DNA of 55,585 nt from an uncultured Planctomycetales bacterium (lineage in GTDB: Bacteria > Omnitrophota > Gorgyraeia > Aquiviventales > Aquiviventaceae). The DNA lies in assembly GCA_964372775.1 (NCBI GenBank), contig CAYJRJ010000003.1:1-55585 (forward strand), given 5' to 3'. The translations under genes were made by a program, and so were the position numbers. This document shows, piece after piece, positions 9,038 to 55,530 of the stretch; position 1 is the first letter of the stretch; each line of letters opens with the position of its first letter. The notes beneath the pieces are model-generated. The model was not told where the DNA came from and did no database searches. It was given only the letters and a program-made list of their open reading frames with translations.

Positions 9038-12000
9038 TTATCTCGAGCGGCGCGTCTCTCTCGCGCTCGCAACTTTCCCGTCGAGCTCCTGCGTCCGGCT
9101 CACGCCGCGTGTTGGTGCTGTGCTCGTGATCTCCAGGGCCGGGTCGAGCCGCCAGGTCGGCCCCGCGGCGTCGCCCGCGGCGGCCATCGTGATGTCGCCA
9201 CCGGCGCCACCTGATGCTGGGGTCGTTCGTTTCGGCAAGGGCAAACCGGAGGTGTAGAGCCCACTCTCAAAATCATCGATGGCGCGTGTCGCCGTTACCC
9301 CGCCAAGTGCCTCGACCTTCTTGTCGAGGACCCGCGTCACATCCTCTTTCGATGCAACGCCTAGCCAGAGCGCGGCCAGTGCGTCCTTCGCTTCCCCATC
9401 GCTCGTGTGGGCGTCAATCAGGTCTTGCACCGTTGGTCCATCCGTGATACGTGCGAGGCGATCATACGCACCCGCGACCAGTTGAGCCACCCCGGCCATG
9501 CCCAAAACCGTGCCTTCGCTGCCGGTCTTCCACACCGGCGAATCCGGCCCGCGGCTGACCGGACCCTGCGCGGCGGCCATCTTGATCTCGCCGCCCTTTC
9601 CAGGCGCAGGCTCAGGATCGCGCGGCACGGGCGCGGGCTCCCACGCCTCGGCATCGGGCAGCGGCGCATCGGGTGCGGAGCCGTCGAGCTGGAGACGAAT
9701 GAGGTTGGCGGTCAACTGCACCAAGTGCTCCCGATTGCCGTAGAGCATGCGCAGGCCGCGCCAGTGCGTGCTCGAAATCCGGATGCCGAATTCGCTCTCC
9801 ACGTTGGCTAGAAACAGATAGAGGCGCTTGGCGTCGTGCCGCAAGACCCCCGCCCCTATTTCAAACTCGTTATCGGCCGCCCATTGCGTCAGCAGGCGAT
9901 CCACCGCGGCACGCAGCGCCGCGTCCGAAAGTCCTGCGAGCCGGGCGCGCGCGGGCGCCAACGTCAACCGTCGGATTTGCTCCGAAAGCTCCGCCAGGAG
10001 CCCCCCGGACGGGGCCGGCTCTCCGCCGAGCCATAACCGCACCCGAGCAGCCGATTGCCGTGCCACGCCTGAGACCTCAAACGCCGTGAGGCCCCCATAC
10101 CCTCCGCGGTGGATGAGAATTCCACCCTTATATAAAGCGTCAGCTAGACGCTCAGCCGCAGTGGTCCTCATCTTCAGGGCGCGCGCCAGCGCGGCCACGT
10201 TGACCGGACCCCGCCGGCGCCGAAGGAACACCTCGAGTGCTTTTAAGAGCGGGCCAGTGCTGAGGCTCTCGCGACCTCCCGGCCTGGCCATGCCCCGCGG
10301 TTCATCCTCGGTCTTGCTCGTCAGCTCCAGGCGCGGATCCAGCCGCCACTGTGGAATCGCAGCCTCACCTGCGGCGGCCATCGTGATGTCGCCGGCCAGC
10401 AACGCTTGGTGCGCGGCGAGCTGGCGCGCATGGGCCTCACGGATGATGGACGGCAGCCGATCCGTGTGGAAGCCGGGTTGAGCCAGCCACTGCTCGCGAC
10501 GCTCGAACTCGCCGGTCCACTGTGCGGCATCATACGAGAGCGCTTGTTCCACGCGCTCACGGCTGACGCCGACTGACTCGAGCGCCTCGAGCTTCAACGA
10601 CTCGACCGTCGGGACGGCACCGATCGGTGTATTCACCGCAACGGCCGTGGGATCCTGCTTGACCCGCCGGATGATCCACTCGAGGACAGAAAAGTTTCGG
10701 CTGTAGCCTGGCAGGAGGAACTGGCCATCAGCATCCTTGCGGAACCAGTTCACGTGAAAGACCGTCGGCGGATGCGGCAAGGACGAGAGGACTCGGAATT
10801 GGTGGGCCGCATAGGAGGCTTCGTCATAGGAGAAGAAGGGCCGCTGCGCGAACGGATCCGGGCGGAACTCCGGCGCGCCCTCCTTGGCCGCCGTGGTGAA
10901 CGCCCCCATCAAGAGACCATCTGCCACTCCGCTCGCCAGGTCGGGCAGCTGCCGAACGAACGGTTCAAAGGTGTGACGGCCGCCAAAGAGCATGAAGCTA
11001 ATCGGCACGCCCTCGGGGTGATCCCAGTCAGCCGGGCGCTCGGCTTCAGGACGGCTGGCCACGTGGCCGATCCATGTCGGCGCGTTGGTAATCCTCGTCG
11101 TCACGCGGGAGTTCGGATGCGCCCAGGGCTTGTTGCGATCTTCCGGCGAGCGATCGCGAATGGGCGTGCCGGTCCAGTCGCGCCAGCCTTCCTCGGTCGT
11201 CATCTCGCCGCGGTCAAGGCGCGCACGCTCGGCGCCGGCCTCGGTGTAGGGCGCTTCATCCGTGCGCCCTTCCCACCACATCTGCTCAACGATCAACTCC
11301 CCCTGCGCGTCGCGCACAAATTTCGCCGCGACGTTAGTGAAGAGGGCGCCAGAGTTCTCCCCCATGGCGCGCATCGCGTTGGGGTTCGTGTTCGAGTTGG
11401 TCATCGGCACGACGCCGAAGAAGCCCCACTCGGGGTTGATCGCCCGCAGGCGGCCATCGGAGCCCGTATGCAGGTGGGCGAGATCATCGCTGACGATGAA
11501 CGTTTCGTACTCCTCCTTGAACTCATCGGGCACCTCGATCATGGCCAGGTTGGTCTTGCCGGAGGCGCTGGGAAACGCGCCGGTGCCGTAGATCGTCTCG
11601 CCGGTCTTCTTGTTGCGAATCCCGATGATCAGCATGTGCTCGGCGAGCCAGGAGCCTTCCTGCCTCGCGCGATACATTGACAGGCGCAGACTGCCGAATT
11701 TCTTCGGGCCGAGCGCGTTGCCCCCGTAGGCCGAACCGAACAAGTACGCGACCCCCTCATCAGGCACCGCGACGAAGTAGCGCTCGTCGTCAGCGCCGCC
11801 GCGCTTGATCGCATCGAGGTCGCCAGTGCTGTGAATGATGCGGTCGAACGTTTGGCCCTGAGCAACGCGCTCTTTCGCGGCCTCGAGCGCGACGCGGCCG
11901 ACTTTGTAGAGCTGGATGAGGTTGAGGGCCGCATACCGGTTGTCGGTGACTTGAATCCCGACCTGCCGGTTGGACGAGTCGACCGGCCCGGCGATATACG

Positions 12001-12661
12001 GGACGACGTAGAGCTTCTTGCCCTTCACGGTACCCGCCATCTTCACCTTGACCGCGGGGATCAGCTCATCGGTCGGCCGCCAGTTGTTGAAGAGGCCGCG
12101 GTCGCTTGCGTTGCGGGTGGCGACAAACGTGCGCTCTTCCGAGCGTGCGGTATCCTGCGGGTGCGAGCGCGCGTAGTAGTTGCCATCACGAGTGCGCCAG
12201 AGGACACCGGCGGCGACCTCCTCCTGCTGCAGGCGGGCTTCATCGGCCTCATCCACGAACTCAAGGCTCTCCGGATCCAGGAGCATGATCTGGTCGAGCA
12301 AGAACGCTTCGATCTGCGGCTCGCCGATGTTGAGCGCCTCGACCATCGTCTTGGCGCGTGAGAGACCCTCTGCGGTCACGCGATCAGGAAGCGGGGGAGT
12401 GGGCACAGGGGCAATCGGAACAGCGGGTGCAACCGGTACGCCGGCGGCGTTGGCGAGCTGGCGCAGCTCCTGCTCGATGCGTTCCTCGGCATCGTTGCTG
12501 GGGTTGGCGCGCGTGCCGCCCGCGCGCAAAGCCCACGCGGATGGCATGGAGGAGCACAGCATCGCAACAGCCAGCACCAGATGAACAAACGCTCGGCACC
12601 GTCCGAGGTGCCGGGCGTTCTTCGATCGAGCCTGCATGATGGCTGCGAGCACAGCGCGCAT
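9038..12661 (-). CDS. Signal-peptide-bearing GTP-type PEP carboxykinase-like protein fused to a ~450-aa C-terminal extension
   Basis: ORF track, 1207 aa. N-terminus FVHLVLAVAMLCSSMPSAWA. See the domain feature below. The tail contains a wHTH-like segment (LLKALEVFLRRRRGPVNVAALARALKMRTTAAERLADALYKGGILI) and three copies of a GDITMAAAG motif. Confidence 0.85.
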   Translation of the reverse strand: MRAVLAAIMQARSKNARHLGRCRAFVHLVLAVAMLCSSMPSAWALRAGGTRANPSNDAEERIEQELRQLANAAGVPVAPAVPIAPVPTPPLPDRVTAEGLSRAKTMVEALNIGEPQIEAFLLDQIMLLDPESLEFVDEADEARLQQEEVAAGVLWRTRDGNYYARSHPQDTARSEERTFVATRNASDRGLFNNWRPTDELIPAVKVKMAGTVKGKKLYVVPYIAGPVDSSNRQVGIQVTDNRYAALNLIQLYKVGRVALEAAKERVAQGQTFDRIIHSTGDLDAIKRGGADDERYFVAVPDEGVAYLFGSAYGGNALGPKKFGSLRLSMYRARQEGSWLAEHMLIIGIRNKKTGETIYGTGAFPSASGKTNLAMIEVPDEFKEEYETFIVSDDLAHLHTGSDGRLRAINPEWGFFGVVPMTNSNTNPNAMRAMGENSGALFTNVAAKFVRDAQGELIVEQMWWEGRTDEAPYTEAGAERARLDRGEMTTEEGWRDWTGTPIRDRSPEDRNKPWAHPNSRVTTRITNAPTWIGHVASRPEAERPADWDHPEGVPISFMLFGGRHTFEPFVRQLPDLASGVADGLLMGAFTTAAKEGAPEFRPDPFAQRPFFSYDEASYAAHQFRVLSSLPHPPTVFHVNWFRKDADGQFLLPGYSRNFSVLEWIIRRVKQDPTAVAVNTPIGAVPTVESLKLEALESVGVSRERVEQALSYDAAQWTGEFERREQWLAQPGFHTDRLPSIIREAHARQLAAHQALLAGDITMAAAGEAAIPQWRLDPRLELTSKTEDEPRGMARPGGRESLSTGPLLKALEVFLRRRRGPVNVAALARALKMRTTAAERLADALYKGGILIHRGGYGGLTAFEVSGVARQSAARVRLWLGGEPAPSGGLLAELSEQIRRLTLAPARARLAGLSDAALRAAVDRLLTQWAADNEFEIGAGVLRHDAKRLYLFLANVESEFGIRISSTHWRGLRMLYGNREHLVQLTANLIRLQLDGSAPDAPLPDAEAWEPAPVPRDPEPAPGKGGEIKMAAAQGPVSRGPDSPVWKTGSEGTVLGMAGVAQLVAGAYDRLARITDGPTVQDLIDAHTSDGEAKDALAALWLGVASKEDVTRVLDKKVEALGGVTATRAIDDFESGLYTSGLPLPKRTTPASGGAGGDITMAAAGDAAGPTWRLDPALEITSTAPTRGVSRTQELDGKVASARETRRSR
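10412..12379 (-). other. GTP-dependent PEPCK homology region (aa ~95-750)
   Basis: ARSHPQDTARSEERTFV, FPSASGKTNLAMI (P-loop; canonical FPSACGKTN from memory), IVSDDLAHL, NPEWGFFGVVPMT, FHVNWFRKDADGQFLLPGYSRNFSVLEWI. Confidence 0.8.
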
Positions 12662-12690: not shown

Positions 12691-15600
12691 TTATACTCCG
12701 CTGGTGGCCGCTGCGATGGTCGTCTGGTAGCTGCGAACCTCGGCTTCCGTTTCAGGCTTGATGTCGAGGTTCTGCGGCACAACCAGATCGCCTTCTTGGA
12801 GGAGCTTCAGCTGGGCCGCCAGCTTCGGATTGAGCTTGCCGCCGGCCGCCGCAGCTTCTACACCGGCGACAATGGCCGGCGCGGCCGAAGCGATCTGGCC
12901 CGTTTCCTTCGCAGGTTCCACAGCAACAGCAGCAACTTCCTCTGGCTTTGGAGAGGCCTCCTTAATTGCCTGCGCCCAAGCCGACGGACCGATAACACTT
13001 CCCACGATGCTGCCGGCAACCCCGGCGCTCAAGAGCCCCAACAACTCACCGGGCTGCTGCTGCGCGGGAAGGACCAGATCAAACATCCCCAAGTCGAACT
13101 TCGCTGCTCCGTTCGATGCGGATGGTATCGCTTTGGCGAGCGCCTCGGCCTTCCGCTGCGCCTCATCGGGCGTTGACGCGCCATCGACGACCAGCGCGAA
13201 GTGAATCGCCTTCGACCCGTTACCGAGGACCTGGCGCAGTTGGCGCTGGATCAGCTCCTGCGCGATCGCCGCGTCAGGCCCCTGGGCATAGACCGAGGAG
13301 TGCACCACGATCCACCGAGGATTCGCTAGATCCGCAGCCTGCTCCGCGACCTCAGGCGAGATCGTGTAGTCGGTTGCATCGGGGAACTGCTCCACGAGTC
13401 GTCCCTGCTCCACCGCGGCGACCGTCGTATCGCTCACCGCCACGGCAAACGGGGAGTCCTTGGCGACGATCTTGTTGCGCGTCTTGCGAGCCGGATACGC
13501 CGCCTCGATGTCCCGGTCGATATTGGGCCCGTGCGGCGTGAAGCCGCCCTGCGAGTTGATCCACATTTCGTTGAACCGGACCACGCGCTCACGCGCCGCG
13601 TCAAATGCCGCGCCGGCATACATATCCTCGCCGACCGCCAAGCCCGTGGACGCATCCGCCTTCACCGTGCCATCCTGAGCGACCGCGTAGCGAATGGAGA
13701 TTTCGATGGGGTTGCTCCACTTCACGGCGACCGCGGTGTCGCGGCCTTCCGGCCGCATCGCCACGTAGTGCGATCCGCGGGCGTTGCCGATGTTGACCCG
13801 AACCGCCACTCTGGTGATGGCCCGATGCAGCGAGGCAAAGGGGTCAATCGCGATCATGACCGAATCATCCTTGCCCACGTACTCGCCACCCGTGACCGCG
13901 GCCAGCTTTTCCGTGGACACTGAGGCGATATAGTCTCCGCCGAGAAACTCGGCCACCTTGTACAGCTCCACGAGCCGTGGCCGGACCTGCTCGAGCACCG
14001 TGTCAAGCGGATCGTTCAGGATGGCGCGTTCCCACGGGTTGAGCAGCTCGGGGGAGCGGCCTTTCTTGTGGTCCGCCTGCCACGCGGCCACCTCTTCCTG
14101 CAAGTACGTTTTGCGCTGCTCATACTCGGGCCGTAGCGCCGACAGCTCGCCCTCCACGCGCGCATCAATCGCCGCGACCTCCTCCGGCGTCAGATCGCTG
14201 ATCCAGCCGGCGCGCTTCTTGGTCCAGATGCGCTTGATGTTGTGATCGTTCGCAGCGCTCAGCAAGGAAAGTAGCTGCGCGTCTTCGGTCTCCGCGTCGA
14301 TAAACGCCCGCGAATTGGGCAGCACGTCCCACGTTTCGAAGACGAGTCCATGTTGGATCATCTCTAGAAACCGTTCCAGTTCTCTCGTGTGTTGCAGATC
14401 GCTCCCGTGTTTAGACCACACTTCATCAACTAAGTCTCTGACGAACTTCTTCCGATTCTCTTCCGGGACATCGGGCATGCGCTTTGCAACCTCTTCATCG
14501 AGACTAGTGGAGAGTCCTGCGAGGTCAGGTATTCCCCCAGGAAACGCCTGTCGTAAGAGGAGGGAGAGGCGGGTGGCCCAGTAGGCCGGGTAATTGAACG
14601 CCCCGGCTGCGCCCTTGTCGTTGGCGATCACACTCCACCGCGGGAATCGTCCAAGCTCTCCTGCCGAGAGCGTCTTTTCGGCAAACCCGATGCCCATGCC
14701 CCGCACGTTGCCCGGCAGCAGGAGTTCGACGATCTTGCCGCTGGACTTGCCCTGCTTGAAGTTCTCGTACCCCCGACGGATTTCGCCCATGCGCGCCGCT
14801 TCTTCCGGCAGCGACTGGATCTCTTCTGCCAGCGCCTTGATGAAATCGTCGTTGAGGTTGGCGTAGACGTCCAGCTTGCCCGCCTTGATGAGCTCAACGA
14901 CCTTGGGGTCCACGAGATCTTGCATGAACCCGTACAGCTTGTACTTCAACCGCTGCGACACCCAGCCCGCCCGGAAGAACGTGGCCCAGGCCAGGCCGTG
15001 AATCTCGGCGTTGTCCACGCCGCGCTTGTGGAACAGGATGAAATGGTTATCATCGCCGGCCGCCGCCACATCGAAGCCGTCGATGAGCCCCTGCTTCACC
15101 GCAACTTTCAAGCTCGCGATGAAGGCTGCGCGATAGATCTTGTACGGCAGCTGGTGGCCGGTCGCCCCGATATCCGCCTTCAGGTCGCTTACCGTGACGA
15201 CCTGGCTCGCGTTCGACGCTTTCAGAATAGGATCGATCCTGACGATGGGCTTGCCGTCGGCTCCCACGACCGTCTTGCCTTCGGTGTCACGCTCGGTCAC
15301 GGCGGGAATCTCATGGTAGCGAGGCCCCATGGCTTCCACGGTGTGCTCCGCCCGCCGCGTCGCCTCCGGGGCGGTGACGGCCGGCTGGAACGAGCCCAAC
15401 AGCATCAGGCTGTCATGCACAAACCGCTCGTCCTCACGGGTCGTCTGCACATCGGTGCTGATAGCGACCTGGTCGTGCACTTCGCTGTGCGGAATCCGGC
15501 CGTTGTCATACGACTGGTACGTGTAGGAGACCATCTGCACGAGCCCGTCATCTGCGAAGGTGCCGGCGTCCGCCTCCTCGAGGGTCACGGGGATCACGCC

Positions 15601-17589
15601 GCGGTGCACAGTACCCTCCCGTGGACCCGAGGTGGTGAGGTAGAACTGCGTCGTCGCCGACACGAACTCGCCGATCGCCGGAGCACCCGACTGCTGCTTG
15701 GCGACGAAGATCGGGCTGAAGCTCTCGCCGTCTTGCGTTGCGTCGCCGACCTGATCCACCATGACGTTGAGCATCGGGTCCTGATCTTCAGGCGCCTTGG
15801 TCACGTCATAGAGCCGCGAGCCGGGCCGCGGCAGGACTTTGGTGATGACCCACTCGGTCTGGTCGTCCACCAGCGTATGGATGTAGGGCGCGCTGCGCGG
15901 AAAGACAAACCGGTAGGCGGTGCGGTCGGTCTTGCCCGCGAGAATGTCCGCGATGCGCTCGACGACGACAATGTAGCCTGGACCTTCTTGCTCCGCTTCA
16001 TAGGCGAGATTCGCCGCGTTGAACTCGAGGTCTTGCGCAAGCGCCTCGTCGCCCTGCTCTTTGGCCGTTCGGTATTTCTCGTACTCCGCGCGCAGCACCT
16101 TCAACTCATCCTCCCGGATCCCCTCGATCTTCAACTGGTTCTCGATCGCCTCATTGAGCAGGCGCATGATGACCCAGTTGAAGGCCGCCGGGCCGCCGCC
16201 GAGTGCTGCGCTGACGTAGATCGGCTCAGCGCCGCGCTCGTTGAACGCGAACTCGCCAGTGCGGATGCGCAGCGCCTTGGCTCGCTCAGCGTACGGACGT
16301 GGTGTCAGTTTGGTCCCGGGAGTTCGAAACCCATCGATGAACTCCGCTTCGCGAGTCCAGAGCTCTTCAAACGCTTTGGTGAGCCGCGGCCGCTCTCCGG
16401 ACGGGGTGAGATCCACCACCACATCGCTTACCAAATCCACAACGAGTCGATCTACCTCAGGGTTACGCTGGGGGCCGTTGGAGTGCACCTCGAGCAAGAC
16501 GTGAGAGCCAAAGCGCCTGACCAGCGCATCCTTAATCGTGCCTGCTTGGGCCGCCTGGGCAAGACGCGTCTCAATGTTCTTGACCACATACTCCGGCACA
16601 CGGCCGCCCTCAAAGAACCGCCCAAGGCTTATGAGGTATGGCACAAGCTGCACGCGCTTGGCGAGCTTCTCCGCGTTCTTGCGGGCCGCGGTCTTGCGCG
16701 CGGCGATCTGCTCGGCCCGATGCGCCTCGTTCGAGGCCGCCTGCGCTTGCTGGGCCGCTTGGGACTTTTCGAACACGCGCGCGATCGCGCCGTTGACCGC
16801 TTCCGCTACGGAGGAGGGCTCATCGAGATGGAAGCCGCGAATGGCATCGTTGACTTCATGCCGCAGGAGGAACACGAGGGCATCGTGGCCCGTCGGACCC
16901 TCTGCGATCAACCCTTCAATTTGTTCAAGGCTCAGGTACACGCTCTTGGGTCCGAGCACGTTGCGCACCTGTTGTCCCAATCCTGTCACCGCCTCCTGCC
17001 ATCCCTGGAATGCGTGCTGGCCTGAGTAGGCCACCAGCGCCTGGTGGGTGGGGGTGCCGCGGATGCCTTCGGTCACCAGCGCCGGTGTGCCGGGCTCATC
17101 GAGTACGAGAACGAATCGTCCAATTTCGCTGGCCTGGATACTCTCGACGCCGGGGAGATTGGGGGAAACCATGATGGCATTGACGACATGCGAGAGTTGT
17201 CCCTGCGCGCGCGCCAGTCGCTCCTTCAGCGCGCCCTTCTGCGCATCGGAGAGCGCGCGACCGGTGCGGGCTTCATGCCGGCGAGCGTAGTCGGCTACCA
17301 GATCATCGGTTGAGCGGGACCCGGGCCCAATCAGCGGGAACGCCCGGCCTTCGGCGAAGGCGGCGGAGACGATCTCCTTGCCCATGCGCACAAGGTTCGC
17401 TCTGCCAAGTTCGGTGAGGTTGGCGCCCGGAGCGCCCCAGACCCACGCTCCGTCCTCCCGAATCTTCTCGCCGGTGACCCCGCTTTGGCCTGCACCCTCC
17501 GGGCGCATGGCATACGCCGCGGGGGTCAGCTGCGAGAGTGACAGCGCCCAGGCGAGTACTACGGCCACCGGTCGTGTCCACTGGCTCAT
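12691..17589 (-). CDS. Signal-peptide-bearing 1632-aa protein embedding a class V fructose-1,6-bisphosphate aldolase/phosphatase-like domain
   Basis: The ORF track frame is 12691..17643. I place the start at ATG 17589 (MSQWTRPVAVVLAWALSLSQLTPAAYA) because AGGAGG lies 6 nt upstream, and only 19 nt separate it from the stop of the preceding gene. Confidence 0.85.
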   Translation of the reverse strand: MSQWTRPVAVVLAWALSLSQLTPAAYAMRPEGAGQSGVTGEKIREDGAWVWGAPGANLTELGRANLVRMGKEIVSAAFAEGRAFPLIGPGSRSTDDLVADYARRHEARTGRALSDAQKGALKERLARAQGQLSHVVNAIMVSPNLPGVESIQASEIGRFVLVLDEPGTPALVTEGIRGTPTHQALVAYSGQHAFQGWQEAVTGLGQQVRNVLGPKSVYLSLEQIEGLIAEGPTGHDALVFLLRHEVNDAIRGFHLDEPSSVAEAVNGAIARVFEKSQAAQQAQAASNEAHRAEQIAARKTAARKNAEKLAKRVQLVPYLISLGRFFEGGRVPEYVVKNIETRLAQAAQAGTIKDALVRRFGSHVLLEVHSNGPQRNPEVDRLVVDLVSDVVVDLTPSGERPRLTKAFEELWTREAEFIDGFRTPGTKLTPRPYAERAKALRIRTGEFAFNERGAEPIYVSAALGGGPAAFNWVIMRLLNEAIENQLKIEGIREDELKVLRAEYEKYRTAKEQGDEALAQDLEFNAANLAYEAEQEGPGYIVVVERIADILAGKTDRTAYRFVFPRSAPYIHTLVDDQTEWVITKVLPRPGSRLYDVTKAPEDQDPMLNVMVDQVGDATQDGESFSPIFVAKQQSGAPAIGEFVSATTQFYLTTSGPREGTVHRGVIPVTLEEADAGTFADDGLVQMVSYTYQSYDNGRIPHSEVHDQVAISTDVQTTREDERFVHDSLMLLGSFQPAVTAPEATRRAEHTVEAMGPRYHEIPAVTERDTEGKTVVGADGKPIVRIDPILKASNASQVVTVSDLKADIGATGHQLPYKIYRAAFIASLKVAVKQGLIDGFDVAAAGDDNHFILFHKRGVDNAEIHGLAWATFFRAGWVSQRLKYKLYGFMQDLVDPKVVELIKAGKLDVYANLNDDFIKALAEEIQSLPEEAARMGEIRRGYENFKQGKSSGKIVELLLPGNVRGMGIGFAEKTLSAGELGRFPRWSVIANDKGAAGAFNYPAYWATRLSLLLRQAFPGGIPDLAGLSTSLDEEVAKRMPDVPEENRKKFVRDLVDEVWSKHGSDLQHTRELERFLEMIQHGLVFETWDVLPNSRAFIDAETEDAQLLSLLSAANDHNIKRIWTKKRAGWISDLTPEEVAAIDARVEGELSALRPEYEQRKTYLQEEVAAWQADHKKGRSPELLNPWERAILNDPLDTVLEQVRPRLVELYKVAEFLGGDYIASVSTEKLAAVTGGEYVGKDDSVMIAIDPFASLHRAITRVAVRVNIGNARGSHYVAMRPEGRDTAVAVKWSNPIEISIRYAVAQDGTVKADASTGLAVGEDMYAGAAFDAARERVVRFNEMWINSQGGFTPHGPNIDRDIEAAYPARKTRNKIVAKDSPFAVAVSDTTVAAVEQGRLVEQFPDATDYTISPEVAEQAADLANPRWIVVHSSVYAQGPDAAIAQELIQRQLRQVLGNGSKAIHFALVVDGASTPDEAQRKAEALAKAIPSASNGAAKFDLGMFDLVLPAQQQPGELLGLLSAGVAGSIVGSVIGPSAWAQAIKEASPKPEEVAAVAVEPAKETGQIASAAPAIVAGVEAAAAGGKLNPKLAAQLKLLQEGDLVVPQNLDIKPETEAEVRSYQTTIAAATSGV
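13489..15201 (-). other. FBP aldolase/phosphatase (archaeal-type class V FBPase) homology region with two large insertions (track aa ~815-1385)
   Basis: Compared from memory with the Sulfolobus enzyme: VSDLKADIGATGH / VIKADIGSLAGHH; AAGDDNHFILFHKRG / HVGDDLQLIMTHTRG; LPGNVRGMGIGFAE / FSGNVRGLGPGVAE; VIANDKGAAGAFNYP / FMADKTEPGAYNLP; GGEYVGKDDSVMI / AGKYVGKDDPVMI; ARGSHYVAMRP / MRGSHYGPLMP. Confidence 0.65.
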
Positions 17590-17608: not shown

Positions 17609-19192
17609 TCATTGTTGATTGGCGATCGCCATGACCTCATCAAAGCTGCCGAGGCCGCTCTTGTATTTGACCACGGCGTGATAGAGTCGTTCGTCAGTCG
17701 GGGTGCTGATCTTCGGCGTCACGACGACCGCCCCGACTCCGCGATCCTTGAGCAGCTGGGTAATCCGGGGCCCATGAAAGCCGCCGGTGATGAGGACCGC
17801 GAGGGGCTCGCCGGTCTCCTGCAGTTTCTTCAGGGTGTTGTTCACGAGCGCCGCATCGCGCTGCTGCGCCACGTCATAGAAGCGCTGGACCGCGCGCAAG
17901 GCTGAGGCGAGTTCTGACAATCCTGTAAATGGCTTGGGGGATAGGCCGTGGTGGGCGAGCTGAGCCTGGAAGAACGTCTCCCAGCCGCTGATGGTCGAGG
18001 ACCAGTCGAGTGTGGCCTGCCGCTCGTACTCCGCAGGCGAGAGCTGGAAATCCAGCAGCTTCTCGACCAGATCAACGTCCTGCTGAATCCGCGTCAGCGC
18101 CTGGCTCTCCGATGTCACGCTCAGCGCGTCCCGCAACTGCGCTGAGGCGGCGTCGAGCTCATCGGCCAGGTCAGTCGCGACGATCGCGTCGCTGGCAGCG
18201 AGGTAGCGCGTGTACCGGCTCAGCGCGGGGTAGGCGGCGAGATCGATGCGGGAGGTTGCGGCCAGTTCTTCGAGCAGCGTGTAGAACTCCACCGGCTTTG
18301 CGGTGCCCTGCTTCATCGCAGCACTCGTGGCCACCAGCCGCTCTAGGTCCGCCTCGCCGGCCTGCTCACTGAGCTGACCAATGAGGCGCTGTTGCTGTGC
18401 GCGCGCTTCTTCCACATTGATCTCCGATTCGAGACGGTGGACCTCAAGAAACCGCTGCAGATGGGGATAGCGCTCCAACGCGCTGCCTGCGCGCTCGGCG
18501 AAGGCGGCGAGCGCCTGCGCATAGTCGGCCAAGTCCAGTTCGTGCGCCTCAAACGCCTTGGCCTTCGCAGCGAGCTCCACCGCCGCCGGGTTCATCAGCC
18601 GAGACTCGAGCTCCTGGCACGATGCCAGGATGCTCTCCAGTAGAGGGCGGGCCGAGGCTCTGATCGACTCGGTCTCGAGAAACACCTTGACGTTCGCATC
18701 GTACAAGGCGCGCTGCTCCACGCCCCAGAGGATGAGCGGGTCATCCGAGACGATGTCCAGATACTCTTCCGCGCTGATGATGCCGGCCTTCAGATATTTC
18801 TCGGCCACCTGCCGGCGATTCTCCGGCGGGCCGTATTTGCGCAGATAGGTCAAACTCGCGTCGCCTTCACTGCCTTCAACCAGGATCAGCTTGAGGCCGT
18901 GGTGCGCAATGAGCTCTTCGAGGATCGTGATGATGTGCTGCTGGCCTTCGTAATTGGTGTGGGCTTCCTGGATGTGGACGACGATCTGGGGGTGCGAGGC
19001 GGCAGCGGCGTTCGGTTCGTGGGTCTCAAGGATGTAGCCGGCTTCTGACGGGATTCGAATATCGGCGGCGCGGGAGACTTCTGAGGATCTCAGGGAAGAT
19101 GCGGGGGATTGCGCGTAAGAAAGCGCTACCTTGCCGGCGCAAATAAAAATGGCCGACCAGGCCAACATACGTAGACGAGCCCCTTTCCCCAT
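17609..19192 (-). CDS. Signal-anchored 527-aa hypothetical protein; possibly TraB/Tiki/ChaN-like (GxxH) fold
   Basis: The ORF track frame is 17609..19369. I place the start at ATG 19192 (MGKGARLRMLAWSAIFICAGKVALSYAQSP) with AGGAGG 9 nt upstream, because the track's upstream 59 codons lie in an AT-rich promoter region. Motifs IVVHIQEAH...LILVEGS and LAVLITGGFHGPRI resemble the TraB/Tiki family, a weak call. Confidence 0.75.
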   Translation of the reverse strand: MGKGARLRMLAWSAIFICAGKVALSYAQSPASSLRSSEVSRAADIRIPSEAGYILETHEPNAAAASHPQIVVHIQEAHTNYEGQQHIITILEELIAHHGLKLILVEGSEGDASLTYLRKYGPPENRRQVAEKYLKAGIISAEEYLDIVSDDPLILWGVEQRALYDANVKVFLETESIRASARPLLESILASCQELESRLMNPAAVELAAKAKAFEAHELDLADYAQALAAFAERAGSALERYPHLQRFLEVHRLESEINVEEARAQQQRLIGQLSEQAGEADLERLVATSAAMKQGTAKPVEFYTLLEELAATSRIDLAAYPALSRYTRYLAASDAIVATDLADELDAASAQLRDALSVTSESQALTRIQQDVDLVEKLLDFQLSPAEYERQATLDWSSTISGWETFFQAQLAHHGLSPKPFTGLSELASALRAVQRFYDVAQQRDAALVNNTLKKLQETGEPLAVLITGGFHGPRITQLLKDRGVGAVVVTPKISTPTDERLYHAVVKYKSGLGSFDEVMAIANQQ

Positions 19193-19325: not shown

Positions 19326-22300
19326 TCAAATGCCTCGCTGGACAGCACGAACGGATTGCACGATCCCATTCAGTCGAGTGGAGTTAGGCATACTCGCTTC
19401 CTGGCGGCGCCACTCCATCCACTGCAGCACCAGGCTTGCCGCCGTCATGACGAGCGCAGCACCCCAACTCCAGACGCTCTGCGCCGCACCCAGCAGCGCG
19501 TCATTGAGCCACACCACAGCCGGCACCCGCAGCTGCATGACGGACACCACCGGTGTTGTGCGCATCCCCGAGAGCGCGTAGTTGCGCAGCGCAATCCCCA
19601 CACCGCCCAATACACTCGCGGCGCCCAGCAGCGCTGCCGCCGGCACGCTCCAGCCGCCGAGCGCGACAGGCGCGTGCCACGCGAGCGATGGCAGGCTCAC
19701 CCCGTAACCTGCCGCCGCGCCGATCGCCATCCATACGCCCACGCCCAGCAGCGCCGCAATCAGCGCCCAGAAGTGGACCAACCAGCTGCCTACCCTGGCA
19801 GGATAGCGGCCGTCCTGATGCTGCACGCGGTTGAGCGCCACCACATTCCAAGTCGTTAGCAACACCGCCAGCGTTGCCAATCCGGCGCCCAGCCAAGTCT
19901 CCAGATTCCACAGGGGCCATTCCATGCTGTGCAGCCAGATCGTCCCGACCAGACCCGCGAGCGCGGCTGCGATCTCCGCCGCGTGCCGCCGGCTGAGCTT
20001 GCCGGAGAGGGCATGACGCGCCGCAAAGTACAACGCCGCCAGCGGCACCTGCGCTCCCAGAATCGTAAAGGTCAGGGCCGGGTCAACGAAGCTCAGCGAC
20101 CACGCCACGAGCGGGCCGGCGAGGGCCATATTCATGGCCAGTATCCACTGGTCTCTCAGGCGCACGCGGGTGAGCATGGCCAGGGCGGTCTGCGTGAACC
20201 GGCGCGGCGAGTAGGCGCTCGAGGCCGTCCAGAACAGCGGCATGACCACGACATTCAGCGCCAGATAGAGCACGTGCGCCGGCGCCCACCCGAAGACCTC
20301 GACCAGCGGCTTCCAGATCACCGCTTCCACGGCGCCGATGGCCACGCGCGCCAGCGCCGCCGCCACACCCTGCCAATAGGTCGCCCGCGCGGGACGCGCC
20401 AACGGCGCTGCCACTCGGTCGTCCGTCATTTTCAGCTCAACCGTGCTGGATCGCTCGACGGTCAAGGGACGCGTCGGATCAAACGCGCCGAGCCGATCGT
20501 GCAGCCGGTGGCCGTCCACCCAGACCTCGAGTGCCCCCAGATCCCGGCCCTGAGCCATGGCGTGCGCGAGCTGATCGCCCAGCGAGAGAATCAGCGAGTC
20601 GTGGATGGCCTGCGCATGCGTGAGCCCCTGCACTACAATGCTGATGGCCCCGTCGGCCAGCGGCCGGCCATCGGTGCCAAGGCCGCGCGCGAGCGCCGGG
20701 TTCACGATGCCGTCCGAATCGATCTCAGCGAACCAGCCTCCCATGCGCTCCATGCGCAATCCCTCCCGGACATTACCCGAGGCGCTGGTCGTTGAGATGA
20801 AGACCAGGGGCCGCGCCGCGCCGGCCGGCGCGTGCCGAAGCTGAGCTTGGAGCCGGCTCACAAACGCCCGGCCGCGCCATGTCGGCAACAACTGCTCCAG
20901 CAGAAAGAGACGGCCCAGGAAGAGCCAACGCAGGGCCCGCTGCAGCCGCACCCATCGCGCGGCTCCTTTGGTCAGTTGCAGTGCGGCATTGATGAGCAGC
21001 AGCCCGTCCGGCTGGCTCGGCCCGCCGTTGGCCCAGTGGCGCAGTGCCAGCATTCCTCCGACGCTGCTGGCCACCATGATCACGCGGCCCGGGCGCTGCG
21101 CGCGCAGATGCGCGATCACATCCGCGACGCCGCGCTGCACCAGCGTCTCAACCGGCCGATGCAGGCCGCGCCGAATGTGGTGCAGATCCACAAGCTCCAC
21201 GCTGGCCACGCGCAGTCGGCTGGAGAGCTGGCGCGCGACACCCTGCATCCAGTAGACATCCACCTGGCGCCGCCCGAACGATGCCTGGAGCTTGCTCAGC
21301 AGAAACTGCTGCAGCTCCATCATGACCATGCCGGGCAGCATGACGACGGTGACATCCGGCACCTCGGGAGCATCGGGCCCACCGATGAAGATCTGCTGGC
21401 CGGCCGGCGTGACGTCCTCGAGGAGACGGCTGGACGGCGACTCGATGGAGAGATCCTCTCCTGCCACCACGCTCCAGAATTGGCGCCAGCTGCTTCCAGG
21501 GTCGCTGACCAGCCAGGCGAGCGCCATCGCTGAAATACCCAGCACCAGCAGCGGCCATCCAGTCGCGCCAGCAAGGCTCAAGCCGATGCCGGAGATGGCG
21601 ACGATCGCTCCCGTGATGATCATGAAACTCGGCCAGCGGGCCAGCGCTGCCCGCAGCGAGCGGAGCAGATTCGGGAGAAAGGTGATGAGCATCCCCACCG
21701 GCGCGGCGAGGGCCAGCTGGCTGAAGGCTGAAGGCTCAAGGCTGAAGGCTAACCCGGGGCCAAAAATGGTATCAGATACCATTTTTCCGGAGCCATCGCC
21801 GGCCAGCGCGGGGGCGGCCAAGACGAGGATCAACAGCAGGACAACGGGAAGAAGCCCGGCCACTCGGAGCGCCTTGCGCAACTGCCGGATCCGCTGCGGG
21901 CTGACGCCAAACATCTTGGCGTGCCGCGCCGATGTCCATGTCGGATGGTTCCGCATCTGATCCAGCAGGACGTCACGATCAACTTTTTGCGCTGGGCCCT
22001 TCGAGGAATACGGAATGCCATGGCGGAGCATCCACCGCCGCATAGTGGACTGGCTCACCTGATAGCTGTCCGCGAGCCGTTTCTGTGTCGCATCGGGATC
22101 AGCGTCAACACGAGCCCTGAGCTCCTCGCCGGACGGCCGCACGCGCGGCCGTCCAGAGAGCCACCGGGCGGCTGCGAGGACGATGAGCAGCGGCAGCGTG
22201 GGAGGCCCGCCGAAGCGATACCACGCCATGGCCCGCAGGAATCCCGCATGGAGGAGTCCGGTCATCAGGAGGAGAGGGTTGCCGGCGCCCCGCTCCGAGT

Positions 22301-52166: not shown

Positions 52167-52238
52167 CGCCGCCGGCGCGGGAGTGGTGGAAGCCGTCAGC
52201 GGTGTCTTGGCTTCGCCTTCAAGCCTCCGGGCGAGCGC

Positions 52239-52267
52239 TTGACGCGCAGAGTCCTCTACGGTATCCT
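52239..52267 (+). promoter_or_regulatory. Cassette 1 promoter TTGACG-17-TATCCT
   Basis: Counted directly. AGGAGG at 52275-52280 follows. Confidence 0.5.
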
Positions 52268-52292
52268 TGACCACAGGAGGTTGTGTGCCACC

Positions 52293-52556
52293 GTGCGACG
52301 TGTTCAGATCTGGTGGGATGACGAGACGGCGGAGCACCTTGCCAGGCACGGGGTGGCGCCAGAAGAAGCGGAAGAGATCTGCCGGGTGCGCCCCTACATC
52401 TTGCGTACGCGGCGGGGCCGTTACCTGGTCCTTGGATACACTGGAGCGGGGCGATATCTGACTGTCATCTTGGAGCCAGTGGGAGGCGGCCGGATGAAAA
52501 TCATTACGGCGCGAGCGATGACGCCGCCTGAACGCCGACGGTATCTGGAGCGTTAA
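52293..52556 (+). CDS. brnT: BrnT-like (DUF497) type II toxin
   Basis: VRRVQIWWDDETAEHLARHGVAPEEAEEI...GRYLVLGYTGAGRYLTVIL...KIITARAMTPPERRRY. Taken with a GTG start; an in-frame TTG at 52281 is an alternative. The ORF track frame is 52131..52556. Confidence 0.7.
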   Translation: MRRVQIWWDDETAEHLARHGVAPEEAEEICRVRPYILRTRRGRYLVLGYTGAGRYLTVILEPVGGGRMKIITARAMTPPERRRYLER

Positions 52557-52559
52557 CCC

Positions 52560-52793
52560 ATGAAAAGTCATATTCCAACGTTCAAATCCTTGGACGAGGA
52601 GCGCCGATTTTGGCAGACGCACGACGTCACGGAATTCTGGTCTGAACTGACCCCGGTGACTCTGAAGTTTGGAACGTCCAAGCGTGCGCGGTCGATTCAG
52701 TTGACCGTCGTTGAGTTGCGCGCCCTCCAAAGCCTCTTGAGGAAGCTTGTGACCGCTGAACGACCGCCTGCCGAATCCCACCGGAAACTGTAA
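52560..52793 (+). CDS. brnA: BrnA-like antitoxin
   Basis: MKSHIPTFKSLDEERRFWQTHDVTEFW.... It starts 3 nt after the brnT stop, in the toxin-first order typical of brnTA. Confidence 0.7.
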   Translation: MKSHIPTFKSLDEERRFWQTHDVTEFWSELTPVTLKFGTSKRARSIQLTVVELRALQSLLRKLVTAERPPAESHRKL

Positions 52794-52799
52794 TCCGAA

Positions 52800-53060: not shown

Positions 53061-53079
53061 CGCCGTCGGCGCGGCGCTG

Positions 53080-53109: not shown

Positions 53110-53119
53110 TTTGGACGTG

Positions 53120-55526: not shown

Positions 55527-55530
55527 CCTT

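What the first reader, a model, noticed from the sequence alone, without database searches (positions are those of the whole stretch)
9038..12661. Signal-peptide GTP-PEPCK-like protein with a 450-aa C-terminal extension, adjacent to the FBPase-like gene
The PEPCK core is well conserved: substrate loop ARSHPQDTARSEERTFV, P-loop FPSASGKTN, SDDLAHL, NPEWGFFGV, and guanine pocket FHVNWFRKD..FLLPGY. The protein nonetheless starts with a Sec-like signal (LVLAVAMLCSSMPSAWA) and a Pro-rich spacer. After the enzyme it continues into a wHTH-like segment and further unknown sequence.

The P-loop Cys of canonical enzymes (from memory) is Ser here.

Two gluconeogenic enzyme folds sit in consecutive signal-bearing giant proteins, immediately downstream of a giant gene that carries 6PGL-like and TreT-like modules. 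This suggests a functionally linked set, either a membrane-tethered metabolic assembly or enzyme folds re-used as ligand sensors, rather than ordinary metabolism.
Basis: partly seen in the sequence, partly recalled or inferred. Interest (0 to 1): 0.7.

Follow-up and report, generated by a model that had tools for sequence, protein, structure and literature searches.

The report
Exported PEPCK module beside giant gene
A real 1,207-residue gene encodes a gluconeogenic enzyme (GTP-PEPCK) that carries an export signal, contains no cysteine and has an orphan tail; it belongs to a conserved gene cluster, next to a giant gene, whose proteins together hold nearly a whole sugar-building pathway that looks built to work outside the cytoplasm.

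Summary
Window 9038-12661 (minus strand) is one uninterrupted, codon-consistent ORF. It has a Sec-type signal peptide (AWA|L), a Pro-rich spacer, a complete GTP-PEPCK domain (aa 103-747; model pLDDT 89, TM 0.85-0.89 to solved PEPCKs) and a 460-aa tail with no homolog among 1.84 billion representative proteins.

All catalytic, metal and guanine-pocket motifs are kept. Only 99 of 125 near-invariant PEPCK positions survive, against at least 112 in ordinary PEPCKs.

The new evidence is context and composition:
- The upstream ChaN/Tiki-like and FBP-aldolase/phosphatase-like genes recur together in at least three other metagenomic loci.
- In those loci this gene's slot holds 2.3-6.8 kaa signal-peptide polyproteins with malate synthase, isocitrate lyase, PEPCK, enolase, PGAM, PGK, GAPDH and TIM modules.
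- The query's leader aligns with the N-terminus of one of them.
- These proteins and the giant protein are almost cysteine-free. Mature PEPCK protein: 0 Cys, 9.4 expected. Neighbouring ordinary genes: about 0.2-1.2% here, 1.1-3.9% in related loci.

Best reading: the smallest version of an exported gluconeogenic enzyme-module protein of Omnitrophota-type giant-gene loci. The phenomenon was noted by West-Roberts 2023. The PEPCK module, the conserved accessory operon and the Cys exclusion are not in the two papers I read. Activity and location remain inferred.

The parts
12530..12661 (-). Sec-type signal peptide, aa 1-44. The n-region has 6 Arg/Lys, the h-region is AFVHLVLAVAMLCSSM and the c-region is PSAWA|L. 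It holds the protein's only two Cys (C22, C36).
   Evidence: A GAAGG SD-like sequence lies 8 nt upstream of the ATG and the gap to the upstream stop is 29 nt. aa 21-73 align to the N-terminus of the L178 6839-aa protein (42% identity).
12356..12529 (-). Mature N-terminal spacer, aa 45-102. It starts with LRAGGTR, the conserved '[LM]R' post-signal motif, followed by ERIEQELRQLA and the Pro-rich linker VPVAPAVPIAPVPTPPLP.
   Evidence: Codon statistics show it is coding.
10421..12355 (-). GTP-dependent PEPCK domain, aa 103-747. R-loop TARSEERT, YGGN/KK, LAEH, P-loop FPSASGKTN, SDDLAH, NPEWGFFGV, HPNSR, FGGR, guanine pocket NWF..GQF..PGY..N.
   Evidence: AlphaFold model pLDDT 89.4. Foldseek TM 0.85-0.89 to solved GTP-PEPCKs. 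Residue roles from PMC4370629.
9038..10420 (-). Orphan C-terminal extension, aa 748-1207 plus stop. Small helical blocks (about aa 803-992 and 1055-1138) are separated by disordered Pro/Gly-rich linkers. It ends in a basic tail.
   Evidence: No homolog in 1.84e9 representative proteins. No Pfam domain. Single-sequence AF2 model pLDDT 47. No significant fold match. Coding in frame.
10316..10393 (-). Junction motif copy 1, GDITMAAAGEAAIPQWRLDPRLELTS (aa 757-782), about ten residues after the end of the PEPCK domain match (aa 747).
9566..9592 (-). Junction motif copy 2 (short form), GEIKMAAAQ (aa 1024-1032), inside the Pro-rich linker.
9122..9199 (-). Junction motif copy 3, GDITMAAAGDAAGPTWRLDPALEITS (aa 1155-1180), 27 residues before the C-terminus.
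   Evidence: 78% DNA identity to copy 1 over 79 nt.
10109..10246 (-). Weak winged-helix-like segment (aa 806-851). Not significant.
   Evidence: MarR E = 0.028, below the gathering score. Only low-probability GntR/FadR-type fold hits.
12691..17589 (-). Upstream partner gene: a 1632-aa signal-peptide protein with 0 Cys and a split FBP aldolase/phosphatase (FBPase_3) domain. The start is M19 of the ORF, with an AGGAGG Shine-Dalgarno.
   Evidence: Full-length homologs at 51-64% identity.
17609..19192 (-). First gene of the putative operon: a 527-aa signal-peptide protein, weakly ChaN/Tiki-superfamily-like. It is conserved (55% identity) in L179 and L181 in the same position.
19326..55583 (-). Giant ORF of at least 12,085 codons, open to the contig end. 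It has many TM segments and GlnD_UR_UTase, 6PGL/GlcN6P-isomerase, PALP, alpha/beta-hydrolase, TreT_GT1 and GT1 modules, and only 2 Cys.

Best explanation
This is a genuine gene for a Sec-exported, cysteine-free protein. It has a cleavable signal peptide and Pro-rich spacer, a complete and well-folded but fast-evolving GTP-PEPCK domain that keeps every catalytic, metal-binding and guanine-binding motif, and a 460-aa lineage-specific tail. The tail consists of small helical modules joined by disordered linkers that carry a repeated peptide motif.

It is the third gene of an operon-like unit directly downstream of a multi-TM giant gene of at least 12 kaa: ChaN/Tiki-like protein, then a 1.6-kaa FBP-aldolase/phosphatase-like protein, then this gene. 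In related genomes the first two genes recur together. The slot of this gene is filled by 2.3-6.8 kaa signal-peptide polyproteins with malate synthase, isocitrate lyase, PEPCK, enolase, PGAM, PGK, GAPDH and TIM modules. The window's protein is therefore the smallest version of an exported gluconeogenic enzyme-module protein of Omnitrophota-type giant-gene loci.

Shown here: gene integrity, domain identity and fold, motif retention, the leader and its conservation, synteny, and Cys exclusion.

Inferred: after Sec export the protein works outside the cytoplasm, in the periplasm, on the cell surface or at a predator-prey interface. There it would interconvert oxaloacetate + GTP and PEP + GDP + CO2 together with the other exported modules, on metabolites and nucleotides that only a lysed or penetrated prey cell could supply. 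The repeated linker motifs may be processing or recognition sites.
For: - Gene integrity: one ORF, with frame-0 codon likelihood best in all windows. The identical product is on a second assembly record.
- Domain: Pfam and NCBIfam matches. PDB phmmer E = 1e-93. AF2 pLDDT 89.4, pTM 0.87. Foldseek TM 0.85-0.89.
- Motifs: all catalytic motifs are kept. Guanine pocket is F/F/Y/N versus Mtb F502/F510/F515/N518.
- Export: a single N-terminal hydrophobic segment with a positive n-region and an AWA site. The leader is homologous to the L178 polyprotein N-terminus. PEPCK modules in P0010 and the L084 3561-aa ORF also follow signal peptides, with no strong hydrophobic segment between signal peptide and PEPCK module.
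- Cys exclusion: mature protein 0 Cys against 9.4 expected (P = 8e-5). FBP-like protein 0 against 13. Giant 2 against 98. L083 6532 aa, L084 3561 aa, P0004 2019 aa and the L002 3057-aa ORF all have 0. Neighbouring ordinary genes have 1.1-3.9% Cys and canonical PEPCKs a median of 1.9%. Cys exclusion is a known property of exported proteins in bacteria without oxidative folding (PMC2823432).
- Synteny.
- Precedent: glycolytic and gluconeogenic domains 'predicted extracellular' in Omnitrophota giants. A multi-enzyme metabolic class of giants is described, and SBP and glycosyl hydrolase genes lie downstream of giant genes as they do here.
Against: - No GTP, GDP or reducing cofactors are expected outside a cell, so extracytoplasmic catalysis needs a special setting.
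- 26 of 125 near-invariant PEPCK positions are changed, including GDDIAW to SDDLAH (unique among 120 homologs) and FLWPG to FLLPG. This is below every ordinary PEPCK (minimum 112), so constraint may be relaxed or altered.
- The NCBIfam equivalog cutoff is missed by 0.9 bit.
- No signal-peptide predictor could be run, so cleavage is inferred from the n/h/c layout and the -3/-1 rule.
- The tail has no homolog and no confident structure.
- Taxonomy is inferred only from labelled nearest relatives: Omnitrophota MAGs, and one MAG labelled Planctomycetales.
- The rest of the genome is not available, so the presence of a canonical PEPCK cannot be checked.
Confidence: 0.55

Rival explanations
1. Exported but non-catalytic. 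The PEPCK fold, like the other enzyme modules, would be re-used as a binding, adhesion or scaffolding module on the cell surface or in a giant-protein assembly, in the way surface-displayed glycolytic enzymes moonlight as adhesins.
For: There are 26 substitutions at near-invariant positions, the lowest retention in the set together with P0010. The SDDLAH motif is unique. Nucleotides are absent outside cells (general knowledge). The neighbouring FBPase_3 domain is heavily split and scores far below its equivalog cutoff (153.9 against 520).
Against: Every residue class known to bind metal, phosphoryl groups, OAA/PEP and guanine is retained. The model is confidently PEPCK-like, including the mobile loops. 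Retention of the P-loop Lys/Thr, the DD pair and the His has no obvious reason in a pure scaffold. Related loci hold a coherent pathway set rather than random folds.
Confidence: 0.2
2. An ordinary cytoplasmic PEPCK. Either translation starts at M106, or the N-terminal hydrophobic segment only tethers a cytoplasm-facing enzyme to the membrane.
For: M106 lies just before the start of the PEPCK homology (NCBIfam model position 9 aligns at aa 103). The same clade contains normal-length PEPCKs without leaders (P0006-9, L086). Nielsen & Lui read the TM-only giants as facing the cytoplasm.
Against: aa 1-100 show coding codon statistics in frame. No SD-like sequence precedes M106, but one precedes M1, and the gap to the upstream stop is only 29 nt. 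The leader is conserved in L178. The positive-inside rule places the body outside. Total Cys exclusion contrasts with 0-5 Cys in leaderless clade members and 7-16 in the other ordinary PEPCKs compared.
Confidence: 0.1
3. A decaying remnant. The gene is what is left of a longer multi-enzyme polyprotein like those in L178, L179 and L181. The tail would be degenerated former modules, and the PEPCK domain would be drifting under relaxed selection.
For: Positional counterparts are 2-6 times longer. The tail is an orphan. Invariant positions show elevated substitution.
Against: There are 1207 codons without a stop at 65% GC. My estimate of the chance of 460 stop-free codons is about 1e-5, from base composition. 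Codon usage is normal throughout. The active-site residues are intact. The tail shows no trace of TIM, enolase or other modules even at Pfam E up to 10. The repeated motif is conserved within the tail.
Confidence: 0.1
4. An assembly or sequencing artefact that fuses a PEPCK gene with a separate downstream gene.
For: The tail begins with a motif that contains an ATG (ITMAAAG). A 79-nt direct repeat (78% identity) brackets most of the tail.
Against: The same 1207-aa product is called on a second assembly record. There is no frame change in the codon statistics. There is no stop in frame. The analogous junction motif in a related giant ORF (L083) is conserved at peptide level, not DNA level.
Confidence: 0.03

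Closest known systems
GTP-dependent phosphoenolpyruvate carboxykinase (PckG; e.g. M. tuberculosis Pck PDB 4WIE/4R43, rat cPEPCK 2QEW, C. glutamicum 2ZCI)
   Same: Both Pfam domains are present over their full length. 32-33% identity in structure-based alignment to solved structures and TM 0.85-0.89. R-loop, YGGN/KK, His, P-loop Lys/Thr, DD, NSR, GGR and the aromatic guanine pocket are all present.
   Different: It has a signal peptide, a spacer and a 460-aa orphan tail. It has zero Cys, against a 1.9% median. Only 99 of 125 near-invariant positions are kept. SDDLAH replaces GDDIAW. It carries insertions of about 20 and 12 aa relative to Mtb Pck. It sits in a giant-gene locus rather than a metabolic operon.
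Omnitrophota giant proteins with metabolic-enzyme modules ('Archaeovorins', West-Roberts et al. 2023, bioRxiv 10.1101/2023.11.21.568195; 'multi-enzyme metabolic clusters', Nielsen & Lui 2026, bioRxiv 10.64898/2026.06.07.730766)
   Same: Central-carbon enzyme folds lie in signal-peptide or TM-bearing proteins. The papers list TIM, GPI, FBPase, PGM, FBA and PPDK. The domains are highly divergent. SBP and glycosyl hydrolase genes lie downstream of the giant gene. The nearest labelled relatives are Omnitrophota MAGs.
   Different: This protein is 1.2 kaa, not 10-30 kaa or more, and is signal-peptide-only with a simple topology. PEPCK is not among the modules those papers list. The conserved ChaN-like + FBPA/P-like accessory operon, the Cys exclusion and the junction motifs are not mentioned in either paper. 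No SecA_DEAD or C39 domain was found in the part of the giant held in the window.
PEPCK modules embedded in other long ORFs (L083 at least 6532 aa; L084 3561 aa; P0004 2019 aa; P0010 1388 aa; L178 6839 aa)
   Same: They fall in the same PEPCK clade, at 40-49% identity. They are Cys-free. They have a signal peptide where the N-terminus is known. Lineage-specific short motifs sit at module borders.
   Different: They carry other partner modules: ADK, methyltransferase, ROK, TIM, HAD, ECH and others. Their tails are unrelated to this one. The query and P0010 have the longest branches.
Surface-displayed 'moonlighting' glycolytic enzymes of bacteria (enolase, GAPDH and others; general knowledge, not tested here)
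   Same: Central-metabolism enzymes are found outside the cytoplasm.
   Different: Those are the cell's ordinary leaderless enzymes. Here dedicated, leader-bearing, Cys-free paralogous modules are encoded in a special locus.

Membership tests
GTP-dependent PEPCK (EC 4.1.1.32) | PEPCK_N (PF17297) and PEPCK_GTP (PF00821) matches above the gathering score, over their full length | tested here: met
   156 and 309.9 bits against a cutoff of 23.8; profile coverage 2-218/218 and 1-354/357.
GTP-dependent PEPCK (EC 4.1.1.32) | NCBIfam equivalog NF003253 score at or above the curated cutoff | tested here: not met
   503.1 bits against a cutoff of 504, missed by 0.9 bit.
GTP-dependent PEPCK (EC 4.1.1.32) | Catalytic and metal-binding residues: R-loop Arg, Tyr of YGGN, Lys-Lys, His, P-loop Lys/Thr, Asp-Asp, Asn-x-Arg | tested here: met
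   TARSEERT, AYGGN, PKKF, LAEH, SGKTN, SDD and HPNSR align with Mtb Pck. Residue roles from PMC4370629, and from my memory of rat cPEPCK numbering.
GTP-dependent PEPCK (EC 4.1.1.32) | Guanine pocket (Mtb F502, F510, F515, N518) | tested here: met
   F, F, Y, N. Tyr at the third position occurs in 26 of 119 homologs.
GTP-dependent PEPCK (EC 4.1.1.32) | Family-wide near-invariant positions retained at the level of ordinary members | tested here: not met
   99 of 125, against minimum 112 and median 124 in 60 normal-length PEPCKs.
GTP-dependent PEPCK (EC 4.1.1.32) | PEPCK three-dimensional fold | tested here: met
   AF2 pLDDT 89.4. Foldseek E about 1e-56 and TM 0.85-0.89 to rat, Mtb and Polaromonas PEPCK.
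GTP-dependent PEPCK (EC 4.1.1.32) | Enzymatic activity OAA + GTP <-> PEP + GDP + CO2 | not testable with these tools
   Needs a recombinant enzyme assay.
Sec-exported protein | N-terminal signal peptide: positive n-region, h-region of 10-20 aa, small residues at -3/-1, no further TM segment | tested here: met
   Manual reading plus a Kyte-Doolittle scan. The only hydrophobic peak is at aa 19-42, followed by AWA|L. No SignalP or DeepTMHMM was available.
Sec-exported protein | Compositional signature of exported proteins (Cys exclusion, or paired Cys) | tested here: met
   0 Cys in 1163 mature residues against 9.4 expected, P = 8e-5; both Cys lie in the leader. Principle from PMC2823432.
Omnitrophota giant-protein systems (Archaeovorin / multi-enzyme metabolic class) | Protein length at least 10 kaa (Nielsen & Lui catalogue) or at least 30 kaa (West-Roberts) | tested here: not met
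   This protein is 1207 aa. The adjacent ORF is at least 12,085 codons and is truncated by the contig end.
Omnitrophota giant-protein systems (Archaeovorin / multi-enzyme metabolic class) | Metabolic-enzyme modules in signal-peptide or TM-bearing polypeptides | tested here: met
Omnitrophota giant-protein systems (Archaeovorin / multi-enzyme metabolic class) | Solute-binding protein, transporter and glycosyl hydrolase genes downstream of the giant gene; T2SS/T4P genes upstream | tested here: inconclusive
   SBP_bac_1, GH94, CBM11 and a GH144-like gene lie downstream. The upstream side is beyond the contig end.
Omnitrophota giant-protein systems (Archaeovorin / multi-enzyme metabolic class) | Origin in phylum Omnitrophota | tested here: inconclusive
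   The nearest labelled relatives of the PEPCK (46% identity) and GH94 (63%) are Omnitrophota MAGs, but the best GH94 match (69%) is labelled Planctomycetales. There is no marker gene in the window.
Winged-helix (MarR/GntR-like) domain in the tail | Significant profile or fold match | tested here: not met
   MarR E = 0.028, 14.8 bits against a cutoff of 24.6. Foldseek best E = 0.57, and GntR/FadR hits have probability at most 0.21 on a pLDDT-47 model.

The most novel reading that the evidence does not exclude
These loci may encode an essentially complete gluconeogenic and glyoxylate route as cysteine-free, signal-peptide-bearing modular proteins. The modules seen are isocitrate lyase, malate synthase, PEPCK, enolase, PGAM, PGK, GAPDH, TIM and FBP aldolase/phosphatase. 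The giant ORF adds 6PGL/GlcN6P-isomerase-like and trehalose-synthase-like modules. The proteins would be exported and act at or inside a prey cell, where nucleotides and cofactors exist. There they would convert the prey's C2-C4 metabolites into sugars, which the predator would take up through the adjacent solute-binding protein and GH94 system. The short lineage-specific motifs at module borders would be processing sites that release individual enzymes.
Probability: 0.2. Interest if true: 0.9.

Novelty: new variant of a known kind. Interest (0 to 1): 0.6.

Why it matters
West-Roberts et al. noted glycolytic and gluconeogenic domains 'predicted extracellular' in Omnitrophota giants, but warned that an overlooked TM helix could make the localisation wrong. 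Nielsen & Lui also leave the biochemistry open.

This 1.2-kaa protein is the simplest case of that problem. It has one signal peptide, no other hydrophobic segment, one recognisable enzyme, and an independent compositional signal (no Cys) pointing the same way.

It is small enough to express, assay and test with export reporters. That makes the question of whether central-metabolism modules of giant-gene loci are active enzymes outside the cytoplasm directly testable.

The conserved accessory operon and the pathway-like module set suggest a coordinated function rather than random domain accretion.

Tried and rejected
- Homologs of the tail. An exhaustive HMMER search of aa 748-1207 found only the query itself. 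BLAST against all window proteins and the other long PEPCK proteins found nothing. Pfam at E up to 10 gave only sub-threshold MarR and baeRF hits. The single-sequence AF2 model was poor (pLDDT 47) and its fold search gave nothing significant.
- Internal translation starts at the three ITMAAA motifs. The shared GGCGAC..ATG sequence is not a convincing Shine-Dalgarno compared with the AGGAGG of the neighbouring genes. The analogous motif in L083 is conserved at peptide level with varied synonymous codons. I rejected internal starts in favour of a peptide-level motif.
- The giant ORF's 'MAVDRVDLTS' as its start. The frame is open to the contig end and continues a repeat, so this sequence is internal.
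- Fetching the full L178 6839-aa protein to compare its PEPCK module and what follows it. The homolog search timed out once. A second search returned only ECH proteins. An exact-DNA scan of genome contigs found nothing.
- Finding the window's own genome in genome contigs to look for a canonical pck gene. It is not present.
- The tail as a degenerate TIM or enolase module, or as a relative of the L179 downstream ORFs. No similarity was found.
- p586 against PDB with a 3-sequence profile. No hit.
- The junction motif of the query in syntenic relatives. Absent.

Full report
**1. What is at the coordinates**

Window 9038-12661 (minus strand) is a single 1207-codon ORF.

Pfam finds PEPCK_N (aa 120-333) and PEPCK_GTP (aa 338-747), each over the whole profile. 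NCBIfam's GTP-PEPCK equivalog aligns aa 103-747 and scores 503.1 bits against a cutoff of 504.

A codon-usage likelihood trained on the neighbouring genes prefers the annotated frame in every 100-codon window. This includes the first 100 codons and the whole tail. GC by codon position agrees.

The first ATG has a GAAGG sequence 8 nt upstream and lies 29 nt after the stop of the upstream gene. M106, the alternative that would give an ordinary PEPCK, has nothing comparable.

The identical 1207-aa product is called on a second assembly record, Logan ERR4904391. The gene is real as annotated.

**2. The enzyme domain**

phmmer against PDB gives E = 1e-93 to M. tuberculosis Pck. An AlphaFold model of aa 44-790, built with a 70-sequence alignment, has pLDDT 89.4 and pTM 0.87. 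It superposes on rat, Mtb and Polaromonas GTP-PEPCKs with TM 0.85-0.89.

The following motifs are retained (residue roles from PMC4370629, and from my memory of rat cPEPCK):
- R-loop TARSEERT
- AYGGN..KK
- LAEH
- P-loop FPSASGKTN
- the DD pair
- NPEWGFFGV
- HPNSR
- FGGR
- the guanine pocket, F/F/Y/N against Mtb F502/F510/F515/N518

The P-loop Cys is indeed Ser. Among 120 homologs, 106 have Cys and 9 have Ser. The Ser is shared by the whole clade, including the leaderless normal-length members P0006-P0009. A scan with patterns that included PSASGKT returned mostly Actinomycetota PEPCKs, though I did not check which pattern each one matched. It is therefore not special to this protein.

What is special is the rate of change. 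Of 125 columns that are at least 95% conserved in 60 ordinary PEPCKs, the query keeps 99. The ordinary range is 112-125. Unique changes include GDDIAW to SDDLAH and FLWPG to FLLPG. The domain looks catalytically equipped but is evolving under altered constraint.

**3. Leader and tail**

The only hydrophobic peak in the protein is at aa 19-42. It is preceded by six Arg/Lys and followed by AWA|L, which is a classical Sec/SPI layout read by hand. No predictor was available.

The tail (aa 748-1207) has no homolog among 1.84 billion representative proteins and no Pfam domain (MarR E = 0.028). Its single-sequence model is low-confidence: two helical blocks separated by disordered Pro/Gly-rich linkers. 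The fold search gave nothing significant. The 'wHTH' is therefore a weak hint only.

The linkers carry a repeated motif. G[DE]I[TK]MAAA occurs three times, at aa 757, 1024 and 1155. Two of these copies extend to ..P.WRLDP.LE[LI]TS. None are expected by chance.

**4. Relatives of the PEPCK module**

The closest relatives are PEPCK modules inside long or giant ORFs:
- P0004, 2019 aa, labelled Omnitrophica
- P0005, an Omnitrophota MAG with 65% GC
- P0010, 1388 aa
- L084, 3561 aa, with ARMT1, NAGPA, HAD, PEPCK and TIM modules
- L083, at least 6532 aa, with ADK, methyltransferase, PEPCK, PIG-L and ROK modules

Together with a few normal-length PEPCKs they form one clade.

Where the N-terminus is known (P0010, L084) there is a signal peptide. 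No strong hydrophobic segment lies between it and the PEPCK module.

Each lineage has its own short motif at module borders, and one copy lies directly next to the PEPCK module:
- [AG]ASLG, 9 copies in L083
- DSAM[LM], 3 copies in L084
- RSELR, about 8 copies in P0004

These counts are far above shuffled expectation. In L083 the motif is encoded with varied synonymous codons, including both Ser codon families. It is therefore a peptide-level signal and not a DNA repeat or a ribosome-binding site. Processing or recognition sites are a reasonable but untested reading.

**5. The locus**

Upstream on the same strand lie:
- a giant ORF of at least 12,085 codons, with many TM segments and GlnD-UTase, 6PGL/GlcN6P-isomerase, PALP, hydrolase, TreT_GT1 and GT1 modules
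- a 527-aa signal-peptide protein, weakly ChaN/Tiki-like
- a 1632-aa signal-peptide protein with a split FBP aldolase/phosphatase domain

The gaps between the last three genes are 19 and 29 nt. A strong sigma-70-like site (11 of 12 positions) lies between the giant ORF and the 527-aa gene.

Downstream are SBP_bac_1, GH94, CBM11 and a GH144-like gene. They are syntenic with MAGs labelled Omnitrophota and Planctomycetales. This matches the neighbourhood described for Omnitrophota giant genes.

The FBP-like protein has full-length homologs at 51-64% identity. Their loci show the same order.
- In L181 the order is: giant (15,048 aa), a 158-aa gene, a 533-aa gene (55% identical to the 527-aa gene here), an FBP-like gene (1865 aa), then a 5059-aa protein with PGAM, malate synthase, isocitrate lyase, PGK and enolase.
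- In L179 the slot after the FBP-like gene holds a 2265-aa protein with malate synthase, TIM and a weak PEPCK_ATP-like piece.
- In L178 it holds a 6839-aa protein with ECH, GAPDH, PEPCK_GTP, TIM, enolase and His_Phos_1.

Every one of these proteins has a signal peptide followed within 1-8 residues by [LM]R. The query's aa 21-73 align with the N-terminus of the L178 protein at 42% identity.

The giants themselves are not conserved in sequence. The window's gene is therefore the smallest occupant of a conserved slot for an exported multi-enzyme protein.

**6. Cysteine exclusion**

- The mature query has no Cys. Its two Cys are in the leader.
- The FBP-like protein has none, and the giant ORF has 2 in 12,069 residues.
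- The adjacent GH94 has 10 (1.2%). Canonical PEPCKs have a median of 1.9%.
- With the window's other genes as background, the expected counts are 9.4, 13 and 98. The probabilities of the observed counts are 8e-5, 2e-6 and 1e-39.
- The pattern holds in relatives. The L083 (6532 aa), L084 (3561 aa), P0004 (2019 aa) and L002 (3057 aa) ORFs all have 0 Cys. P0010 has 2, both in its leader. The syntenic proteins have 0-2 outside their leaders. Their ordinary neighbours have 1.1-3.9%.

Cys exclusion is a documented trait of exported proteins in bacteria that lack oxidative folding (PMC2823432). Neither Omnitrophota giant-gene paper mentions it. It is independent support for an extracytoplasmic location.

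**7. Interpretation**

- Shown: gene integrity, PEPCK identity and fold, retained active-site motifs, the leader and its conservation, the conserved locus, and Cys exclusion.
- Inferred: Sec export, function outside the cytoplasm, and catalysis there.

The main difficulty is the supply of GTP/GDP and other cofactors outside a cell. A predator-prey interface or prey cytoplasm would solve it, and Omnitrophota such as V. archaeovorus are described as predatory epibionts. Nothing here tests that idea.

The rivals are a non-catalytic module, a cytoplasmic enzyme, a decaying remnant and an artefact. They are weighed in the dedicated fields.

**8. Comparison with what is known**

The general phenomenon is on record. 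West-Roberts et al. 2023 list TIM, GPI, FBPase, PGM, FBA and PPDK domains 'predicted extracellular' in Archaeovorins, with an explicit caveat about topology. Nielsen & Lui 2026 define a 'multi-enzyme metabolic' class and conclude that such content faces the periplasm or outside in signal-peptide-bearing giants.

The following are not in the text of those two papers as I searched and read it: PEPCK as a module, mid-size signal-peptide-only proteins in a conserved accessory operon, a pathway-like module set, Cys exclusion, and border motifs.

I classify the finding as a new variant of a known kind, of moderate to good interest. The main reason is that it turns an open localisation and activity question into an experiment on a protein of tractable size.

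Noticed in passing
window 52400-55583 (5' part of the giant ORF, minus strand): The giant ORF is open to the contig end. The last codons are a fourth, truncated copy of a repeat of about 90 aa (..ADDDTKFAHSGLHLIAGIGRLFGRQWLTPDGSTDWRAIW..) that is also present three times further in. The gene is therefore 5'-truncated, and the contig probably broke in the repeat. In the first 1050 codons or so, many windows score better in other frames or antisense, and the sequence between repeats is oddly R/Q/H-rich. This part may not be ordinary coding sequence.
   Followed up: partly
window 12691-17589, 19326-55583; loci L083, L084, L002, L178, L179, L181: There is near-total cysteine exclusion in the giant ORF, in the FBP-like protein and in every related long multi-enzyme ORF examined. 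The neighbouring ordinary genes in the related loci have 1.1-3.9% Cys. Where Cys occurs in these proteins it is mostly in the signal peptide.
   Followed up: yes
L083 17-19615; L084 3005-13690; P0004: Lineage-specific short peptide motifs recur at module borders of related giant ORFs: [AG]ASLG 9 times, DSAM[LM] 3 times, RSELR about 8 times. One copy lies directly next to each PEPCK module. In L083 the motif uses varied synonymous codons, so it is selected at peptide level. These may be processing sites.
   Followed up: partly
window 12500-12530 and 17490-17510; N-termini of the L178, L179 and L181 proteins: All FBP-like and multi-enzyme proteins of this locus type carry '[LM]R' followed by small residues, 1-8 aa after the predicted AXA cleavage site (AWA|LRAGG, AYA|MRPEG, AYAHRTLRPE, AFASSYSSLRAG and others). 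This may be a shared secondary sorting or processing signal.
   Followed up: partly
window 17609-19192 (minus strand): A 527-aa signal-peptide protein is conserved at 55% identity in the same position in L179 and L181. It has invariant HIQEAH.NYE.QQH and ITGGFH motifs. All three members hit the ChaN/Tiki-superfamily Pfam model weakly (best E = 0.002, below threshold), and there is no PDB sequence match. The Tiki superfamily includes proteases, so this could be a maturation factor; that is untested.
   Followed up: partly
window 19254-19282 (minus strand) and 8335-8351 (minus strand): A sigma-70-like site, TTGACA-17-TATATT (11 of 12), lies between the giant ORF's stop and the 527-aa gene. A terminator-like hairpin lies near the end of the small ORF after the PEPCK gene. 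Together they would delimit a four-gene transcription unit. These are consensus matches only.
   Followed up: no
window 8296-9036 (minus strand): A small ORF starts one base after the PEPCK stop (TGAnATG) and has its own signal-like N-terminus (MTRIQLALFIMLFSHASPVWA). Its codon-position GC pattern is flat. A 33-aa stretch (..WLSWLQSRGPP) matches the C-terminus of an ORF upstream of the sugar cassette in L164 (42% identity, pairwise E = 1e-5). It may be a real, poorly conserved small gene.
   Followed up: partly
window 864-7380 (minus strand); L163, L164: A sugar-uptake and degradation cassette (SBP_bac_1, GH94 phosphorylase, CBM11 protein, GH144-like/DUF3131 protein) is syntenic, at 55-77% identity in translated comparison, with MAGs labelled Omnitrophota (OFTM210) and Planctomycetales. 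Unlike the giant-locus proteins, the GH94 has a normal Cys content.
   Followed up: partly
window 12691-13200 (C-terminal ~125 aa of the FBP-like protein); L179 17043-17453: The C-terminal module of the FBP-like protein, which includes its only internal hydrophobic segment, occurs as a separate 136-aa ORF in L179 (42% identity). The N-terminal ~400 aa of the FBP-like protein is paralogous to the N-terminus of the L179 2265-aa and L181 5059-aa proteins. Modules are being fused, split and shuffled between genes of this locus.
   Followed up: no
L002 19664-23104: The contig that carries the exported PEPCK fusion P0010 also encodes a 1146-aa PPi-type PEPCK (PF26300) with 14 Cys. That organism therefore has a separate, ordinary-looking PEP/OAA enzyme alongside the exported GTP-PEPCK module.
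   Followed up: no
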